A stretch of 64,000 nt of DNA, taken from assembly GCA_004022145.1 (NCBI GenBank), contig RCNU01000008.1; one strand, 5' to 3'. The notes beneath the pieces were generated by a model. It worked only from the letters and a program-made list of their open reading frames with translations, ran no database searches and was not told the DNA's origin. The stretch is from Paecilomyces variotii (lineage: Eukaryota). The position numbers and the translations under genes are program-made. Shown here piece by piece: positions 14,447 to 20,735 of this stretch. How positions within the stretch are numbered: position 1 is the first letter of the stretch; each line of letters begins with the position of its first letter.

Positions 14447-17400
14447 ATGGACGACAGGCACTCGACAAGCACATATCGTGCAGACGATGGTCTGCGTGAG
14501 AGAAATGTTGCCTCTCAGCAGGCTGCTCTCAACGCTGGCCGAGCAGTTCTCGCAAACATGGCCGAGGGAGAGGTAAAGGACGAAGAAGGAAAAGACAAGA
14601 AGACCTTTGGACGAACACCGGATGGAACAGGTGAGTAGCTGTCTGTTGAACTGCTTCTTGCCCATTTGGAGAGCAGTCGATGCCCTATGTCGTGCATTTG
14701 GTGTTGCGATGGCTGCCTACGGCATGTCTGCATCTGCCAGGAACTGGGCCTAGAACGAGAACGAGTGTCAAACAACCCGGGGAGATTGGTACTAACACTG
14801 TGACACCCGCTAGTCTTTACTGTCCCTCAGACGCATGACATGGTCACTCAGTTATTATCACCTTCGGAACCGAAGAACCTGTCGGATCTGGTTGTTCTTT
14901 TGATTCTCGGTCTTCATTTCGCCGGCCTCTGGCTTCTTCCGTCATCCGCCAGAGTCCCAGTATTCGCGGCCGTGTACCTTTTCTGGCGCGCCTGCTACAA
15001 TGCTGGGATCGGTTGGTTGCTTCACAATCAATCGCAGCACAAGACATTGGTCCGTTGGGCGGCGAAAACGAAGATATTCGTAAACCCGGCCACCGGGAAG
15101 AACCCACATCCAGAACTCTACAAGCTCATCAAGCGTGAATTGGAGATCAAGATCCCCAAAGATTACTCCTTCGATGACGCGCCACTGGAGTATAACACCT
15201 GGCTTGTATTTAGACGTCTCGTGGATCTGATCCTGATGTGTGACTTTGTCTCGTACTGCCTCTTCGCTTTAGCTTGCAGCGGCCGCCCTGCTAATGAGAG
15301 TCTGCTCATGGGTACTGTCCGGTGGGCCTCTGGCATCATTATCGTACTGTTCAACCTTTGGGTCAAATTGGATGCTCACCGGGTCGTCAAGGATTACGCA
15401 TGGTATTGGGGTGATTTCTTCTACCTCATCGACCAAGAACTGACATTCGACGGGGTCTTCGAAATGGCCCCCCATCCGATGTATTCCGTCGGATATGCTG
15501 GCTATTATGGTATTTCTTTGATGGCCGCGAGCTACAAAGTGCTCTTCATCTCCATTATCGCCCATGCAGCACAATTCGCCTTCCTGGTACTCGTGGAGAA
15601 CCCTCATATCGAGAAAACGTACAACCCCCCAGCTCCCCGAAAGCGAAGTACGGACCACGGAACTATTTCTACAGTATCGCACGAGTCGGCTATCCCTAAC
15701 GCGCCATCAGCCACTGCCGACCCTGCACCCATAGTACCTACTTTCACTCCTAAGCAACCCCCATTGACCCACAATCTCTTGGGCCTACGCAACCTGGACC
15801 TGTATCGGACCACGGATTCGTCCATCATCCTCATCCAACTTCTGTTGTTAACTCTGACTGCTGTGACGCCCTCAACCCCGGTTTACCAGTTCTTTTTTGT
15901 GCTTAATGCTGCCCTTTGGAGAATCTGGTACTCGGGTGGGATCGGGTATGTCCTGAACCAACAATCGAACAGTAAGGCGTGGACCCGTCACTTCGTGAAG
16001 TATGGCGAAACTCCCGAGGAAGCATGGCGCCAATGGAAAGGCACGTATCATCTGAGTATGACCATGTGCTATGCTAGCTTCATCGCTGCCTGCTGGAAGA
16101 TGTACTCTCTCCCGCCGGACTGGGGCTATGGCCTAGCGCTCTTGAAACACGTTCTCGGGGCCGGTATGATTGCTCTCCAGATTTGGACGTCAGTCAGCAT
16201 TTACGATTCACTCGGTGAATTCGGCTGGTTCTTCGGGGATTTCTTTTTCGAAGCGCCCCGAAAGCTGACTTATAGTGGCATCTACCGCTTCCTAAACAAT
16301 CCGGAGCGTGTCCTAGGCCTGGCCGGTGTCTGGGGAGCTGTGCTCATCACAGGAAGTAGAGTGATTCTTGTCCTTGCCATAATCAGCCACATTCTAAGTT
16401 TGGCCTTCATTCAGCTGGTCGAGCGTCCCCACATGCAGAAGCTATACGGGCGCAGTTTGCGACGTGATGCCGGTCTGGTCAAGAGCCTGAAGCGTAGTCT
16501 GCCCCCGTCCCTCCAGCAGTTGCATGGAAGTGTGGATAAGATCTTTGATGAATCTTTCGAAATCGTCGAAGATCTACTCGAGGCGGCTCGGCCCAAGCTA
16601 GCCGCGGGCGTTAGTACGTTTGTCAAAGATACAACCGCCCTCTTTCAGAAATACCCTGCCCGCATCACCATCTCTCGTCTCGACGCTGATCTGGCTGGCT
16701 ATGACCAGCGAGACTATACCTTGACCGTTGAAGGCACCGAAGTGTCTTCAGGAGCCGAGCATGAGCATCGCAGCGGTAGAGAGGGTGTTAACGCCCGCAT
16801 GCCTCTTGATAGACGAGGTGAACAGAAGAATCTAGTCTTCCAATACGGAGCTCCGATCAGGGTCAAGTGGACTGCCCCCTTAAACCACAGCAAGAACGAC
16901 TGGGTCGGATTGTATATGGTCACCGACAACACGTCTCGCGAAGTCACCAGAGTGTCATCTCAAGGCCGCTGGATTGCAACGAACTGGGGCACCTTTGACT
17001 CCGTCACCTGCGAAGAAGGGATCATCAGCAGCGATGTTGTGATTCCAGCATCGGAAATTCATGACGGTGAGAATCATGATCTCGCGTCTGGTGAGATGGT
17101 CTTCTCGGGCGACAAGCTCTGGTGGACACAGGGTGTTTTCGAATTCAGGTACCACCACAACGGCAAGCACAACGTTATGGCCATCTCGAGACCTTTTGAG
17201 ATCAGTATTAGTCGCTTTACCGAAGACGAAATTGAAGCAGATCAGCATGGCATGGTTCAAACAGCAGTGGAGAATGCCTTACTGCCTGTCGTCCGCAATT
17301 GTTTCGACCGCAACCCCGATATTGCGCCGGAGACTGTTGATGAGCAGTACGGTAGTCTAGTTGAGCGCGACGGCAAATATGCAAAGAGAGTGGTCTTCGC

Positions 17401-17737
17401 AGTTCGCCAGATGTAAGCAGCCCTAAGTAGTTGCCATCCAATAATGATATTAACCCAGTGACAGGTTCGGTGTCGAGTTCGCACCGGAAGTCGTCCGCGC
17501 CGATGGCAATGTCCGCAATCTAGCATGGAGGATATGCAACGCGAAGAAAGTCCTGGTACGCAAAGCCCACCCCATACACTATTTCCATAGGCCCGATCTC
17601 AGCGCTACTATGTCTCCTTTAAAACCATGACCCAGGCTAATCAAATCTATCTATACCTACAGGCTCCCTACAGCATGACGCGGTCCAACGGAACGACCAC
17701 GCCAACTGAAGAGAAAAAGGAACCCCTGCTGGAGTGA
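14447..17737 (+). CDS. CHO2: Phosphatidylethanolamine N-methyltransferase Cho2, 3 introns
   Basis: [22 protein letters not shown]; two PEMT repeats (WYWGDFF...[13 protein letters not shown] and GWFFGDFF...YRFLNNPE). Introns 14631-14813, ~17413-17464 and ~17556-17662. Stop at 17735-17737. Confidence 0.96.
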
Positions 17738-18419
17738 AATATCAGCAGACCCCCCAGAATCCGTTTACAGTAAGCATTATTTATTTCACAGATGTGAGCT
17801 AGTTCAGTAGGAACTTTCTCCGGCCCTCTCCAATAGCAAAACCGCATCAAAAAAGAAAAGAATATGCATGGGCCGGGCTCGGGCGGCAGTCTATCAATAG
17901 AGGGGTATCATTATATTTGCATACGACTGGAATTTTTTTTTAGCCCCATTCCCTAGCTTCTTGCCATGCATGAAAGAAATGAATTAAAAAAATGAAGTGG
18001 ATTGTGTCTCAGAAGAAAAAAAGTGGGATGAGTTGATGACCCGTTCTCGTTGTGTGGAGGATCGATTTTAGTTTGCTATTTTTTATTTTGTTTTAAATCT
18101 GGCCACATGTGAATACCCTATAGCCATAGTACGGATCATTATTTGTTCTGTACCTTGTACATAGCTTCCATAAGACATACATAAGGAGTATCATCATGAA
18201 AGCAATAGACTAGGGATATGCATAGAGCAGGATTTCTCATTAGATAAATTCATTTTCAATAACTATACGACTACGCACTATTCAAGTACTCGACGGTGTA
18301 TAGGTTAGATACCTACAACAAATCGACACTGTCAGCAAAAAGTCCCCCTCTTGGTTATTCCGTCAACGCTGACAGAATGGGTGAACATATTGAAAGCCGA
18401 CGCAATGAACGATATGAAG

Positions 18420-18766
18420 CATTTTTATTCAGTAAAGCCAGTTAACTCATCCCATCCCCTGCCGATTCCTCCCTTCGGACCCGGCACCCAAAACGAGCAC
18501 ACGGACCCAAAGGGAGGCAAGGGCACAAGTCAAGCATAACACTTGACACCAACAATATACACAGCGAGAGGTGACTCCAAACCAACTTCACAACCTATCA
18601 TCCTCTCCCGGGACACTCCCTCCCGAAGGAGAGAATACCCAGGAAAGTCCGGTATCAGGAAGCGGGGGCGACGTCACTGAGTACATGTATGGTGCAGCGC
18701 GTACTCGAGGGGCGGTATCTCGAAAGAGTCGTTGAATGGATTGACTGGGTGTCATCATGAAAAATG
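18420..18766 (-). ncRNA. Long (~347 nt) structured intronic box C/D RNA, target unknown
   Basis: Terminal stem CATTTTT/AAAAATG; C box ATGATGA (18758-18752); D' CTGA (18658-18655); ~20-bp C(UUCG)G hairpin; C'-like ATGATAG (18601-18595); further G-U-rich hairpins; D box CTGA (18432-18429). Lies inside intron 18818-18313. Confidence 0.75.
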
Positions 18767-18964
18767 GGGGATAATCGAGAGAACGTGTAGGCCGGCTAAC
18801 TTGATGGGGTCTCCTTACCTCTACTTGAGAACAGATTTGTGGTGCAGCCCCTTATGAGAGGTAAGAGTTTTTACAAGAAGAGTGATTCTGTTTCTCTTAA
18901 CTGATGTTAGCCATGACTGTGACACCTTGGGAGAGCAAGATAGAATCGCGTGGATAATAGTGAT

Positions 18965-19051
18965 AGTATCAGGAGATTTTTGGTAAGGTATTTTGTTATC
19001 TTCAATATGTTTGCAGAAGCAGAACTGAAAAAATGTTTCTCATCATAATGG
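18965..19051 (-). ncRNA. snR61: Box C/D snoRNA, snR61 homolog (25S Am1133 guide, yeast numbering)
   Basis: C box ATGATGA (19046-19040). Guide TTCAGTTCTGCTT before D' CTGC is complementary to 25S AAGCAGAACUG. A second element CTTACCAAAAAT is complementary to the adjacent AUUUUUGGUAAG. D box CTGA at 18972-18969. Confidence 0.88.
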
Positions 19052-19234
19052 ATGGCTCGGGAAGATAATAATTCAATAATATGTGTGTGTGTCTTACCTT
19101 GTTAGTTCAGGAAACTGAATTTTCAAACACGGAAATTTTGCCGCGAAAAGACTATTCTGCTACCTGAATGCGAGCATTAGCAAGCCTATCACCATGAAGT
19201 TGATTGGAAATGATCATAGCGAGAATAAGAATGA

Positions 19235-19319
19235 CTGTCAGATGGTAGTGCATGTTTGTTCAATGGCTCATGAAGTTGTCGCCGGAACAGAAATTTTTGG
19301 TTTGATTTCCTCATGCAAG
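19235..19319 (-). ncRNA. snR55: Box C/D snoRNA, snR55 homolog (18S Um1269 guide, yeast numbering)
   Basis: C box ATGAGGA (19314-19308) and D box CTGA (19241-19238). The preceding CATGCACTACCAT is complementary, with one G-U pair, to 18S (A)UGGUGGUGCAUG, and the D+5 rule lands on the U methylated by snR55. rRNA sequence recalled, not aligned. Confidence 0.85.
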
Positions 19320-19677
19320 TGGTGAATGATAGAGGGGATGCTGAGGACTTACATAGGGAATGTCAGTAAGCATGGATAAACCAGCTTCGAATCCCGTCAC
19401 ATTTCCAGGAGAGCGCTGGTGGTAATAATATTGGACAGCAGAGCAATATCCTCAGTGTGGGAGAAAGAAGAGAAGTTCTCGAGCGGCAGCTGGAAAAAAG
19501 GCAGCGATTCCGTTAGCTCCAAAGCAACCAAACAGTGCAAACATCCCTCCAAAATTGTAGATTTCCGTTTCTGGGACGTCCAGGTGGACGGCATTGACAG
19601 CTACGACGAAGCTTCATCTGCTGTCCGATCACTTTCTTACTACTTCAGCGCTGTGATATGATAGCAAGTCATGTGTA

Positions 19678-20735
19678 ATGACTGACAGAAGAAGGATCAA
19701 TGGGCCGCCCGGCGGCACGAGGCCGCCAGTCTTTGCGTCGCTTTTGAAGTCCGCGACAGGCGCTGCGACAGAGAGGCCGACGCGGACGAGACAGCCTACT
19801 GAACTCAGAAAGATTTGTATGATCCCTAAGTATAGGGTTTGATTTGACAACTGAGACTGACATCTCCCCTCTCGTGTGTAGTCCTAAAGACGGGCCTCAT
19901 TCCCTCTGCGACAGGCTCCGCATATCTTGAAATCCAACCTTCCAACTCCACCACCAACTCGACTTCCAAGTCTCTTGTTCCGCCCTCCTCTGCTCTCAAA
20001 CTCACATGTACTGTTCATGGACCTAAGCCTCTACCACGGTCAGCGGCTTTCTCCCCGAATCTTGTGCTTACGACGCACGTGAAATACGCACCTTTCGCTG
20101 CTCGCAGACGAAAGGGTCATATCCGCGATGCCAGCGAACGCGATCTCGGGGTGCACCTCGAAACTGCAATTCGCGGTGCGATCATAGCTGAGCGCTGGCC
20201 GAAGAGTGGGCTGGACGTTACGATCACAGTGTTGGAGGCAGAAGATGACCGATGGTGGGGCGATACTCCGGGCTCGCACGACGCCTCGTGGGGAATGATG
20301 AACGTTCTTGCTGGTTGTATCACAGCTGCCTCTGCAGCCATCGCAGATGCTAGGATCGACTGTCTAGACTTGGTTTCTGGAGGAGTCGCTGCCCTCGTTG
20401 CGGAGCCTGATGCACCGGACGCACCGAAACTACTGCTCGATACCGACCCTGCTGAGCATCAATCCATCATATCCGCTTGTGTTGTCGGCTACTTGCCCTC
20501 TCGTGATGAGATCACTGAGCTGTGGCTCAAGGGCGATACCTCTAGGATATCCTTAAGTGCTGATGACAAGCGCTCCGGACACGAGGCCTTAATTGATGGG
20601 GCCGTCGATGCGGCTCGTGCAGCCCAAACGGTTCTCGCAGAGGCTGTCAGAGAATCCGCAGAGCATTATGCTCAGATGATGGCCGGATCTACAGGAGCGA
20701 CGGGTAATAATGGAGATGTTGAAATGAAGGTGTAA
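19678..20735 (+). CDS. MTR3: Exosome RNase PH-like subunit Mtr3, 1 intron
   Basis: MTDRRRINGP...RTRQPTELRKIF|LKTGLIPSATGSAYLE; CTVHGPKP; HVKYAPFA; WPKSGLDVTITVLEAE; AAIADARIDC. Intron ~19817-19881. Confidence 0.88.

What the first reader, a model, noticed from the sequence alone, without database searches (positions are those of the whole stretch)
18420..18766. Unusually long, multi-hairpin orphan box C/D RNA in intron 3 of the snR55/snR61 host gene
Seen on the minus strand, inside a complete intron (GTAAGG at 18818, GCTGAC, TAG at 18313): a 7-bp terminal stem, perfect C and D boxes ~330 nt apart, and an internal D' CUGA. A 20-bp C(UUCG)G hairpin separates D' from a C'-like AUGAUAG. Other helices are GAGUAC/GUACUC, GUCAAG/CUUGAC, CCUCCCUU/AAGGGAGG and GACUC/GAGUC, and the segment after C (CCAGUCAA) pairs with the segment before D (UUAACUGG). 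The G-U pairs and UUCG loop work only on this strand, which argues for selection on RNA structure. Established: methylation guides are usually ~70-120 nt, while long C/D RNAs (U3, U14, snR190, snR4, snR45) act in processing, chaperoning or acetylation. Inference: the D-side guide is sequestered, and the D' upstream sequence (CGCCCCCGCUUC) has no long rRNA match that I recall. It may therefore be a non-canonical snoRNP. Short 7-8 nt complementarities to the 18S h33/h34 region (GUCAAUCC, loop UGCACCA) and to 25S AGCGGGG are too short to trust. It could be one of the A. fumigatus or N. crassa orphan sRNAs already catalogued.
Basis: partly seen in the sequence, partly recalled or inferred. Interest (0 to 1): 0.8.

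Follow-up and report, generated by a model that had tools for sequence, protein, structure and literature searches.

The report
Long conserved fungal box C/D snoRNA

Summary
On the minus strand there is a perfect C box (18758-18752), a D box (18432-18429), a terminal stem and strand-specific structure (fold z -4.5 against -1.4). Contigs of an RNA library span 18422-18764. A variant strain shows 1 difference in these 343 nt against about 11 expected.

The RNA is not a singleton. A homolog lies 160-300 nt downstream of snR61 in 62 of 86 metagenome loci (136-487 nt long). A covariance model built without the window finds only this site in the 64 kb (E 2e-6).

The family alignment changes the anatomy. 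The conserved D' is ACGA (18732-18729), directly after an invariant guide octamer AUCCAUUC. The conserved C' is AUGAGU (18450-18445). The two boxes covary like a K-turn.

The first guide makes a 10-bp perfect duplex with a universally conserved large-subunit rRNA sequence (UGAAUGGAUU). The box-plus-5 rule then predicts a 2'-O-methyl U; this is unproven.

The RNA is absent from Rfam. It is probably the long orphan family Nc_CD_53 known from Neurospora, which I could not test. Verdict: a genuine new member of a known kind, of moderate interest.

The parts
18422..18764 (-). Mature RNA as covered by RNA-library contigs (about 343 nt)
   Evidence: Two overlapping contigs of run X12 span 18422-18477 and 18448-18764. 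The ends lie 6 nt before box C and 7 nt after box D. The covariance model hit is 18424-18762.
18760..18766 (-). 5' arm of the terminal stem (CAUUUUU)
   Evidence: Complementary to 18420-18426. Relatives have different but complementary flanks, read.
18420..18426 (-). 3' arm of the terminal stem (AAAAAUG)
18752..18758 (-). Box C, AUGAUGA
   Evidence: conserved in the family.
18733..18751 (-). First guide (ASE1), with the invariant octamer AUCCAUUC at 18741-18734
   Evidence: The octamer is exact in all 62 octamer-selected loci and in all 56 covariance-model hits. It always lies 1 nt from D'. It makes a 10-bp perfect duplex with LSU rRNA UGAAUGGAUU.
18729..18732 (-). Conserved box D' (ACGA)
   Evidence: Family variants are ACGA/AUGA/CCGA/ACUA/AAGA. 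Its position 2 covaries with position 5 of C'.
18451..18728 (-). Structured insert between D' and C' (278 nt here; the family RNAs are 136-487 nt)
   Evidence: Closed by a stem next to D' and C' in nearly all members. In the ~205-nt clade the whole consensus fold (insert helices included) has 58 pairs, 28 of them with changes on both sides, against 15.5 in shuffles.
18655..18658 (-).
   Evidence: Present. CUGAUACCGGAC is found in 5 of 41 unique members only.
18603..18647 (-). 20-bp hairpin with UUCG loop (18627-18624)
   Evidence: A hairpin of different sequence sits at this place in relatives.
18586..18603 (-).
   Evidence: A box GAKGAY followed by GYUGUGG is found in 33 of 41 unique members by pattern; near variants occur in 3 more and a reduced form in the 5 shortest. 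The GYUGUGG part pairs with an upstream CCGCAC-type strand, with compensatory changes (helix 5).
18460..18525 (-). Long 3' hairpin of the insert (CCUCCCUUUGGGUCCG / CGGGUCCGAAGGGAGG)
   Evidence: compensatory changes among the window's closest relatives. The only natural variant in the RNA (18486, U to C on the RNA) turns a G.U pair into G-C.
18445..18450 (-). Conserved box C' (AUGAGU)
   Evidence: Family form is N(U/G)GA(G/A/U)U, 11-14 nt before box D. It covaries with D'.
18433..18444 (-). Second guide position (ASE2, UAACUGGCUUUA)
   Evidence: The core AACYGGCU is conserved, but its distance to box D varies from 1 to 5 nt. No exact rRNA complement was found for the four ASE2 core words of 8-10 nt tried.
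18429..18432 (-). Box D, CUGA
18313..18818 (-). Putative third intron of the host gene (GTAAGG 18818-18813, branch GCTGAC 18336-18331, TAG 18315-18313)
   Evidence: The signals are present. A conserved branch motif follows box D in relatives. No joint was seen in the 4 runs, and contigs run through unspliced.
18966..19051 (-). snR61, in intron 2 (18896-19097)
   Evidence: Rfam RF00476, 70.6 bits. The joint 18895/19098 is seen in runs X1 and X8.
19236..19318 (-). snR55, in intron 1 (19161-19349)
   Evidence: Rfam RF00472, 42.5 bits, below the gathering score of 50. The joint 19160/19350 is seen in run X8. Its guide pairs with 18S GUGGUGCAUG.

Best explanation
It is a genuine box C/D snoRNA of about 343 nt. 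It is made from the 3'-most intron-like segment of the non-coding snR55/snR61 host transcript, and it is the local member of a family that occupies the same place in many filamentous-fungus-like genomes.

Anatomy. The core is canonical: terminal stem, box C, a first guide ending 1 nt before a degenerate D' (ACGA), a degenerate C' (AUGAGU), a 12-nt second guide position, and box D. The unusual length is a lineage-variable, base-paired insert in the D'-C' connector. It is closed by a stem that brings D' and C' together, and it carries its own conserved GA-rich internal loop (GAUGAU box).

Inferred mechanism. The usual core proteins assemble on the C/D and C'/D' kink-turns. The invariant octamer AUCCAUUC of the first guide (AAUCCAUUCA in the window) pairs with the universally conserved large-subunit rRNA sequence UGAAUGGAUU. 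From memory this is helix 71, at the subunit interface. The methyltransferase would then 2'-O-methylate the U of GAAU*GG, which pairs with the fifth guide nucleotide upstream of D'. The insert would be a scaffold, perhaps for an extra protein.

Shown: the RNA, its conservation, its boxes, the covariation and the complementarity. Inferred: protein binding, methylation and its site.
For: Reality and expression:
- Strand-specific fold, z -4.51 against -1.43.
- Contigs of the RNA library X12 span 18422-18764.
- A variant contig (X6) shows 46 listed differences over 1891 nt, but 1 in the 343-nt RNA. By hand, 10.9 are expected from the rate outside the three snoRNAs, Poisson P about 2e-4. That one change converts G.U to G-C.

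Family:
- 62 of 86 snR61-bearing metagenome loci carry box C plus AUCCAUUC 160-300 nt downstream. 53 are full length, 40 of them unique.
- Model R1, built from 16 relatives, hits 56 of the 86 loci once each, and hits the window once.

Structure:
- In the 16-sequence clade, 94.5% of cells are paired against 84.8% in shuffles. 28 pairs change on both sides against 15.5 (0 of 500 shuffles reach it), and against 5-11 when partners are slid.

C'/D' motif:
- D' position 2 against C' position 5 gives C:G 20, U:A 8, U:U 8, U:G 2, A:U 1, C:A 1 and none 1, out of 41.
- In L107 and L097 the pattern picked an overlapping upstream match. The aligned boxes make these C:G and U:U, so C is always opposite G.
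- The C'-to-D spacing is 11-14 nt in 38 of 41.

Guide:
- The octamer is always 1 nt from D'.
- There is a 10-bp Watson-Crick duplex with LSU rRNA in two distant eukaryote rDNAs, ending at D'. On the same rDNAs the neighbouring bona fide guides give 11 bp (snR61) and 10 bp with G.U pairs (snR55).
- The target word occurs in the LSU of 4 of 4 rDNA contigs.
- Only 2.8% of all 8-mers, 0.42% of 9-mers and 0.08% of 10-mers occur in sequence shared by those two rDNAs.

Intron: a branch motif lies 36-56 nt after box D in 37 of 41 members.
Against: - No methylation data exist here.
- The predicted U is not, to my recollection, a known 2'-O-methyl site in yeast or human, and no such site is in the N. 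crassa table passages I read.
- Family-wide, the uninterrupted duplex is only 8-10 bp. With G.U pairs allowed, other 8-bp sites exist.
- The rDNAs used are contaminant contigs of unknown eukaryotes, not the fungus itself.
- The published analysis of the probable same family found no unambiguous target, and its weak best guess lies elsewhere in 25S (PMC5824354, passages).
- The second guide has no rRNA match and a variable distance to box D.
- Splicing of the intron was not seen.
- Members were first collected by the octamer itself, so its invariance is partly by selection. However, no model hit lacks it.
Confidence: 0.45

Rival explanations
1. The same RNA and the same snoRNP core, but it does not methylate. 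It would act as an assembly chaperone of the large subunit, in the way snR190, U14 or U3 act. It would hold the rRNA segment UGAAUGGAUU through the first guide, while the structured insert and its GA-rich loop recruit an extra factor.
For: The insert is large, conserved in architecture and covarying. It carries a conserved box-C-like element in at least 33 of 41 members. The guide duplex is short family-wide, 8-10 bp. The second guide position is conserved without a fixed register to box D. No known methylation at the predicted site (recollection; N. crassa table passages).
Against: The first guide sits at an exact, invariant distance from D', which is what a methylation guide needs. The five shortest members (136-138 nt) keep the core but little of the insert. 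No extra long complementarity to rRNA was found.
Confidence: 0.3
2. A guide for an RNA other than rRNA, such as an snRNA, a tRNA or an mRNA. The rRNA match of the octamer would then be fortuitous.
For: An 8-mer has a 2.8% chance of matching conserved rRNA, which is not negligible. The second guide core AACYGGCU has no rRNA complement. N. crassa box C/D RNAs with snRNA and tRNA targets are reported (PMC2780460, table passages).
Against: In the window's subclade the match extends to 10 bp, a 0.08% class. No snRNA or tRNA sequences of a fungus were available to test.
Confidence: 0.15
3. An snR4/snR45/SNORD13-like guide for cytidine acetylation of 18S rRNA by Kre33/NAT10.
For: It is long and orphan. 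No snR45/SNORD13 counterpart is known in fungi other than budding yeasts (PMC9226516, passage).
Against: Those RNAs carry their first antisense element before box C (PMC5464676, passages). Here the contig starts 6 nt before box C and the upstream flanks are not conserved. The longest complementarity of five members to the h34 and h45 segments is 8-12 bp with G.U pairs, against background medians of 9-10 and maxima of 12-15. The matching pieces differ between clades.
Confidence: 0.04
4. Not a stable functional RNA: a structured intron or 3' segment that happens to carry C- and D-like boxes, perhaps affecting splicing of the host transcript.
For: The segment is retained in the two assembled transcripts, X1 and X8.
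Against: Conservation of the boxes, guide and helices across 40 unique relatives. Strong purifying selection compared with the flanks. RNA-library contigs end near the boxes. The flanking intron sequence is not conserved.
Confidence: 0.03

Closest known systems
Nc_CD_53 (snoStrip family CD_53; N. crassa CD53, 212 nt, orphan)
   Same: It is described as the only fungal box C/D family with members 200-300 nt long, found in several Pezizomycotina, with no unambiguous target (PMC5824354, passages). N. crassa CD53 lies on chromosome IV, as do its snR55 (CD34) and snR61 (CD38) homologs, and is listed as 'intergenic' (PMC2780460, table passages). The commonest clade found here is 204-206 nt from box C to box D, which would give about 212 nt with short tails.
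   Different: Identity could not be tested, because no CD53 sequence was available (supplements closed). The family here spans 136-487 nt. The linkage to the snR55/snR61 host gene, the D'/C' assignment and the LSU match are not mentioned in the passages I read.
Canonical 2'-O-methylation guide snoRNAs, such as the neighbours snR61 and snR55
   Same: The same host gene. The same order C-guide-D'-C'-guide-D. A guide abutting D' with a 10-bp rRNA duplex, comparable to the neighbours on the same rDNAs. Intronic position with a branch site about 50 nt downstream.
   Different: About four times longer, with a 278-nt structured insert between D' and C'. D' and C' are degenerate. The predicted target is not a known modified site.
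S. cerevisiae snR4 / snR45 and vertebrate SNORD13 (acetylation guides)
   Same: Long, atypical box C/D RNAs with non-canonical D' regions and extra helices (PMC5464676, passages).
   Different: Their first guide precedes box C, and their bipartite guides flank a CCG in 18S. Neither feature is found here.
U3 and snR190/U14-type non-modifying box C/D RNAs
   Same: Long box C/D RNAs. U3 has a second kink-turn (B/C) that binds an extra protein (recalled). Here there is a conserved inner GA-rich loop.
   Different: No Rfam hit to U3, U14 or snR190. It is intronic rather than independently transcribed. There are no long rRNA-complementary boxes. N. crassa already has separate U14 and snR190 homologs (PMC2780460 table).

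Membership tests
Box C/D snoRNA (class) | Box C (RUGAUGA) near the 5' end and box D (CUGA) near the 3' end, joined by a terminal stem | tested here: met
   AUGAUGA 18758-18752, CUGA 18432-18429, 7-bp stem. Conserved in 40 unique relatives.
Box C/D snoRNA (class) | Internal D' and C' boxes able to form a second kink-turn-like motif | tested here: met
   ACGA (18732-18729) and AUGAGU (18450-18445). D' position 2 and C' position 5 covary in 39-40 of 41 unique members. A closing stem lies next to both boxes.
Box C/D snoRNA (class) | Stable RNA with ends a few nucleotides outside the boxes | tested here: inconclusive
   Contigs of one RNA study (X12) span 18422-18764. Contigs cannot prove ends, and only one study shows it.
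Box C/D snoRNA (class) | Binding of Snu13, Nop56, Nop58 and Nop1/fibrillarin | not testable with these tools
   Needs immunoprecipitation.
rRNA 2'-O-methylation guide | Guide of about 10 nt or more directly upstream of D or D', complementary to rRNA | tested here: met
   10-bp Watson-Crick duplex AAUCCAUUCA / UGAAUGGAUU ending at D'. Family-wide 8-10 bp.
rRNA 2'-O-methylation guide | The nucleotide paired to the fifth guide position is 2'-O-methylated | not testable with these tools
   Needs RiboMeth-seq or primer extension.
rRNA 2'-O-methylation guide | Usual size of about 70-135 nt | tested here: not met
   About 343 nt. 90% of fungal box C/D RNAs are 80-135 nt (PMC5824354, passage).
Nc_CD_53 (snoStrip CD_53) | Sequence homology to N. 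crassa CD53 | not testable with these tools
Nc_CD_53 (snoStrip CD_53) | Long (200-300 nt) box C/D RNA of Pezizomycotina without an assigned target | tested here: inconclusive
   Family lengths here are 136-487 nt, with the main clade at about 204-206 nt box to box. The taxonomy of the metagenome contigs is unknown.
snR4/snR45/SNORD13 acetylation guides | Conserved antisense element 5' of box C | tested here: not met
   The contig starts 6 nt before box C. The 5' flanks are not conserved.
snR4/snR45/SNORD13 acetylation guides | Bipartite complementarity flanking the acetylated CCG of 18S h34 or h45 | tested here: not met
   Complementarity is at background level and not at conserved elements.
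Rfam families (Afu_*, snR4, snR45, snR190, U3, U14 and others) | Covariance-model score | tested here: not met
   No family reaches its gathering score on the RNA. The only overlaps at E up to 10 are bacterial motifs at E 0.06 and 5.8.

The most novel reading that the evidence does not exclude
The family would be a specialised snoRNP of filamentous fungi with three kink-turn-type modules. The large, covarying D'-C' insert with its conserved GAUGAU loop would recruit a dedicated protein (as Rrp9 is recruited on U3). The particle would act on helix 71 at the subunit interface, either installing a lineage-specific 2'-O-methyl U or chaperoning domain IV folding. This would give the orphan CD_53 family its first function.
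Probability: 0.2. Interest if true: 0.7.

Novelty: new member of a known kind. Interest (0 to 1): 0.42.

Why it matters
It adds a third, unrecognised member to the conserved snR55/snR61 host gene. The paper on that cluster describes only the loss of snR57 in filamentous ascomycetes (PMC3596301, passages).

It gives the long orphan family a clear anatomy: the true D'/C' pair, an invariant guide and an expandable insert. It also gives a concrete, testable target in a functionally important region of the large subunit. A covariance model now exists (R1) that could seed an Rfam family.

If the predicted methylation exists, it would be a lineage-specific ribosome modification in a group that includes industrial and pathogenic moulds.

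Tried and rejected
- Rfam at gathering score and at E up to 10: nothing real on the RNA.
- No genome is held for the window. The earlier-findings index was empty by place and by sequence.
- The genome search with the large rRNA families gave no answer. I obtained rDNA instead from eukaryotic contaminant contigs in prokaryote assemblies. No complete fungal rDNA was obtained; L002 holds only the 18S 3' end, the ITS and the 25S 5' end.
- Run X12: the intron flanks (18284-18411, and 18796 upward) and the exons had no cover, and the contig depths were 682 and 1855, against about 175 on snR61 and 9 on the neighbouring gene. By the tool's own caveats, neither missing cover nor contig depth is evidence, and I did not use them.
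- No contig showed the joint 18819/18312. Contigs drop rare forms, so this does not show that splicing is absent.
- Whole-RNA complementarity scans with G.U pairs allowed are dominated by noise.
- The sequence before the inner CUGA (CGCCCCCGCUUC) matches GC-rich expansion segments only, and it is not conserved in relatives.
- The second guide has no exact complement in three rDNAs for the four core words tried. The best site with G.U pairs is 8 bp, AGCUGGUU.
- A 4-bp pairing AGYY/GGCU between the two guides, and a pairing AUUCA/UGAGU, are predicted by RNAalifold but show only one-sided changes (helices 1 and 2). The second competes with the better-supported C'/D' covariation.
- The acetylation-guide idea was tested and rejected.
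- snR57 (lost from this cluster in filamentous ascomycetes) and the U45/U55 introns (which belong to another cluster) were considered and set aside.
- A. fumigatus long RNAs Afu-309 and Afu-182 lie between other genes, and their Rfam models did not hit.
- The T. rubrum and 'atypical snoRNA motif' papers describe other RNAs.
- Supplementary tables of PMC2780460 and PMC5824354 may hold the CD53 sequence, its species list and its predicted target. They could not be read.
Full report
**1. The observation**

- box C AUGAUGA (18758-18752) and box D CUGA (18432-18429);
- a 7-bp terminal stem (18766-18760 with 18426-18420);
- an internal CUGA (18658-18655);
- a 20-bp hairpin with a UUCG loop (18647-18603);
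- AUGAUAG (18601-18595);
- the splice-like signals GTAAGG (18818), GCTGAC (18336-18331) and TAG (18315-18313).

The minus strand folds far better than shuffles (-142.1 kcal/mol, z -4.51, 0 of 100 shuffles as good). The plus strand does not (z -1.43, 8 of 100). Rfam finds snR61 at 18966-19051 (70.6 bits) and snR55 at 19236-19318 (42.5 bits, below its cut-off of 50). It finds nothing real on the candidate, even at E up to 10.

**2. Expression and selection**

No genome is held for the window. The run index listed 19 runs holding the stretch, 8 of them on record as RNA. I laid four of them.

- In the metatranscriptome X12, two overlapping contigs span 18422-18477 and 18448-18764. That is from 6 nt before box C to 7 nt after box D. 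Other contigs of the same run span snR61 (18967-19048), one of them with a run of T as a loose end.
- In X8, one contig joins 19448-19350, 19160-19098 and 18895-18269. X1 shows the joint 18895/19098.
- Introns 1 and 2, which hold snR55 and snR61, are therefore proven.
- X6 holds a 5-kb contig of a variant strain. Of the 36 substitutions and 10 indels listed over 1891 nt, one lies in the 343-nt RNA, one in snR61 and none in snR55.
- From the rate in the remaining 1379 nt (44 differences) I expect 10.9 differences in the RNA. The Poisson probability of 1 or fewer is about 2e-4 (my arithmetic).
- The single change (18486, U to C on the RNA) turns a G.U pair of the hairpin GUGCUC/GGGUGC into G-C.

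**3. Relatives**

I scanned metagenome contigs for box C plus the snR61 guide. The scan reported 98 stretches, and 86 loci were readable.

- BLAST and local alignment showed a homolog of the candidate 160-300 nt downstream of snR61 in most of them.
- 62 of 86 loci carry box C followed by the octamer AUCCAUUC. 53 are full length (40 unique) and 9 are cut or lack a recognisable box D.
- The other 24 lack it, and 3 of those have too little downstream DNA.
- Lengths from box C to box D run from 136 to 487 nt.
- A covariance model built from 16 sequences of the ~205-nt clade, without the window, hits 56 of the 86 loci once each at E up to 0.01.
- The same model hits the 64-kb window once, at 18424-18762 (-), E 2.3e-6, over the full model.
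- No model hit lacks the octamer, so its invariance is not only due to my selection.

**4. Anatomy from the family**

The alignment of the ends shows the order: box C; a semi-conserved AGYYW; the invariant AUCCAUUC; one variable nucleotide; then ACGA/AUGA/CCGA/ACUA/AAGA. That last element is a degenerate D' box at a fixed register.

Near the 3' end, N(U/G)GA(G/A/U)U lies 11-14 nt before box D in 38 of 41 unique members. Position 2 of the 5' box and position 5 of the 3' box covary:
- The tally is C:G 20, U:A 8, U:U 8, U:G 2, A:U 1, C:A 1 and none 1.
- For L107 and L097 the pattern took an overlapping upstream match. The aligned boxes visible change these two rows to C:G and U:U.
- This position is where the U.U pair of a box C/D kink-turn sits (established knowledge). 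The two elements therefore behave as a C'/D' pair.

Directly inside them, a stem of clade-specific sequence closes the intervening domain in nearly all members. In the window, D' is 18732-18729, C' is 18450-18445, and the domain between them is 278 nt.

**5. The insert**

For the 16-sequence clade, RNAalifold predicts 58 pairs. On that structure:
- 94.5% of cells pair, against 84.8% in shuffles;
- 28 pairs change on both sides, against 15.5 in shuffles (0 of 500 shuffles reach this) and 5-11 when partners are slid.

The compensatory changes lie in the five helices of the insert. The two helices that would pair the guides (AGYY/GGCU and AUUCA/UGAGU) show only one-sided changes.

The window's closest relatives (L089, L065, L091) keep the 3' hairpin with compensatory changes. 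They also keep a hairpin of different sequence at the place of the UUCG hairpin.

The sequence upstream of it differs between them, so it is not a guide. The inner GAUGAU-type box followed by GYUGUGG is broader: 33 of 41 by pattern, near variants in 3 more, and a reduced form in the 5 shortest members. Its GYUGUGG part pairs with an upstream strand (helix 5). It may form a further GA-type internal loop, but I could not show that.

**6. Intron or not**

A branch-site motif (NCTRAY) lies 36-56 nt after box D in 37 of 41 unique members. It lies at 65 nt in one and at 88 nt in the window. Two members have none, one of them with only 19 nt of downstream DNA. By chance, about 8% would have the motif in such a 21-nt span (my arithmetic). 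A YAG follows 11-31 nt later, and a GT(A/G)(A/C)G word lies 31-62 nt upstream in most of the 21 members (of 41) that have one within 110 nt.

Splicing in this organism remains unobserved.

**7. Target**

I took rDNA from eukaryotic contaminant contigs in prokaryote assemblies.

- The complement of the octamer, GAAUGGAU, occurs once in the large-subunit rRNA of 4 of 4 such contigs, inside the conserved stretch ...GCAUGAAUGGAUUAACGAG... (one contig has CACGAAUGG).
- The window's guide AAUCCAUUCA makes a 10-bp Watson-Crick duplex with it, ending at D'.
- On the same rDNAs, the snR61 guide gives 11 bp and the snR55 guide gives 10 bp with G.U pairs.
- Only 2.8% of 8-mers, 0.42% of 9-mers and 0.08% of 10-mers occur in sequence shared by the two complete rDNAs.
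- The box-plus-5 rule (established; also stated in PMC5464676) places the methyl group on the U of GAAU*GG.
- From memory, this is helix 71 near the subunit interface, about yeast 25S U2238. That is two nucleotides from the human site G3723, which is guided by SNORD87. The SNORD87-G3723 link and its interface location are in PMC10911272 (passages). The alignment of numbering is my recollection.
- No such site appears in the N. crassa table passages I read.

The second guide core AACYGGCU has no exact rRNA complement, and its distance to box D varies. Its role is therefore open. With G.U pairs allowed, many 8-bp matches exist, so the assignment stays a prediction.

**8. Comparison with what is known**

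- The paper on this cluster reports snR57-snR55-snR61 in fungi, with snR57 lost in filamentous ascomycetes. The passages read mention no third member (PMC3596301).
- N. crassa has a 212-nt orphan box C/D RNA, CD53, listed as intergenic on chromosome IV, the chromosome of its snR55 and snR61 homologs (PMC2780460, table passages).
- The fungal snoRNAome paper calls Nc_CD_53 the only box C/D family of 200-300 nt, present in several Pezizomycotina, with no unambiguous target (PMC5824354, passages).
- The snR4/snR45/SNORD13 architecture (guide before box C, bipartite pairing around CCG) is not met.
- The A. fumigatus catalogue lists no RNA at this place.
- The neighbouring genes carry a phospholipid methyltransferase domain (14840-17416, +) and an RNase PH domain (20064-20735, +).

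**9. Verdict**

The RNA is real, conserved and under selection. Its core is canonical, and its length comes from an expandable structured insert.

The best-supported function is guidance of a 2'-O-methylation in large-subunit helix 71 (about 0.4-0.45). A non-modifying chaperone role is the main rival.

It is a new member of a known kind, and probably of an already named orphan family. Its value lies in the clarified anatomy and a testable target.

Noticed in passing
window 19236-19318 (-): snR55 scores 42.5 bits, below Rfam's gathering score of 50. It is nevertheless real: it lies in a spliced intron (joint 19160/19350) and its guide pairs with 18S GUGGUGCAUG. The Rfam model seems too narrow for this fungus.
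   Followed up: partly
window 18896-18903 (-): Intron 2 is spliced at the distal AG (exon 3 starts at 18895) in runs X1 and X8, not at the CAG five bases upstream that directly follows the GCTAAC branch site.
   Followed up: no
window 18967 (-), run X12: A contig ending at the 3' end of snR61 carries a loose run of 23 T (A on the RNA strand). This is either oligoadenylation of the snoRNA or a tailing step of the library.
   Followed up: no
window 18190-18198 (-): A second perfect AUGAUGA lies about 90 nt past the transcript ends seen in X1/X8. No CUGA partner follows it and it is not covered by the contigs. It is probably chance.
   Followed up: no
L066, L094, L098 (about 230-260 nt downstream of snR61): In loci that lack the family, a different box-C-led element follows snR61, sharing GACAAC..GACGGGCGGAC. 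It may be another snoRNA occupying the same slot in another lineage.
   Followed up: no
L132, 139 nt downstream of snR61: A second snR61-like copy (box C plus a near-identical guide) follows the first, a tandem duplication.
   Followed up: no
One small 'Saccharibacteria' bin holds LSU fragments on about 28 contigs, which is contamination worth flagging. L002, in a Streptomyces assembly, looks like a Eurotiales-type ITS.
   Followed up: partly
window 14840-17416 (+) and 20064-20735 (+): The host gene is flanked by an open reading frame with two phospholipid methyltransferase (PEMT) domains, convergent with it, and by an RNase PH domain frame (exosome Mtr3-like), divergent from its start.
   Followed up: partly
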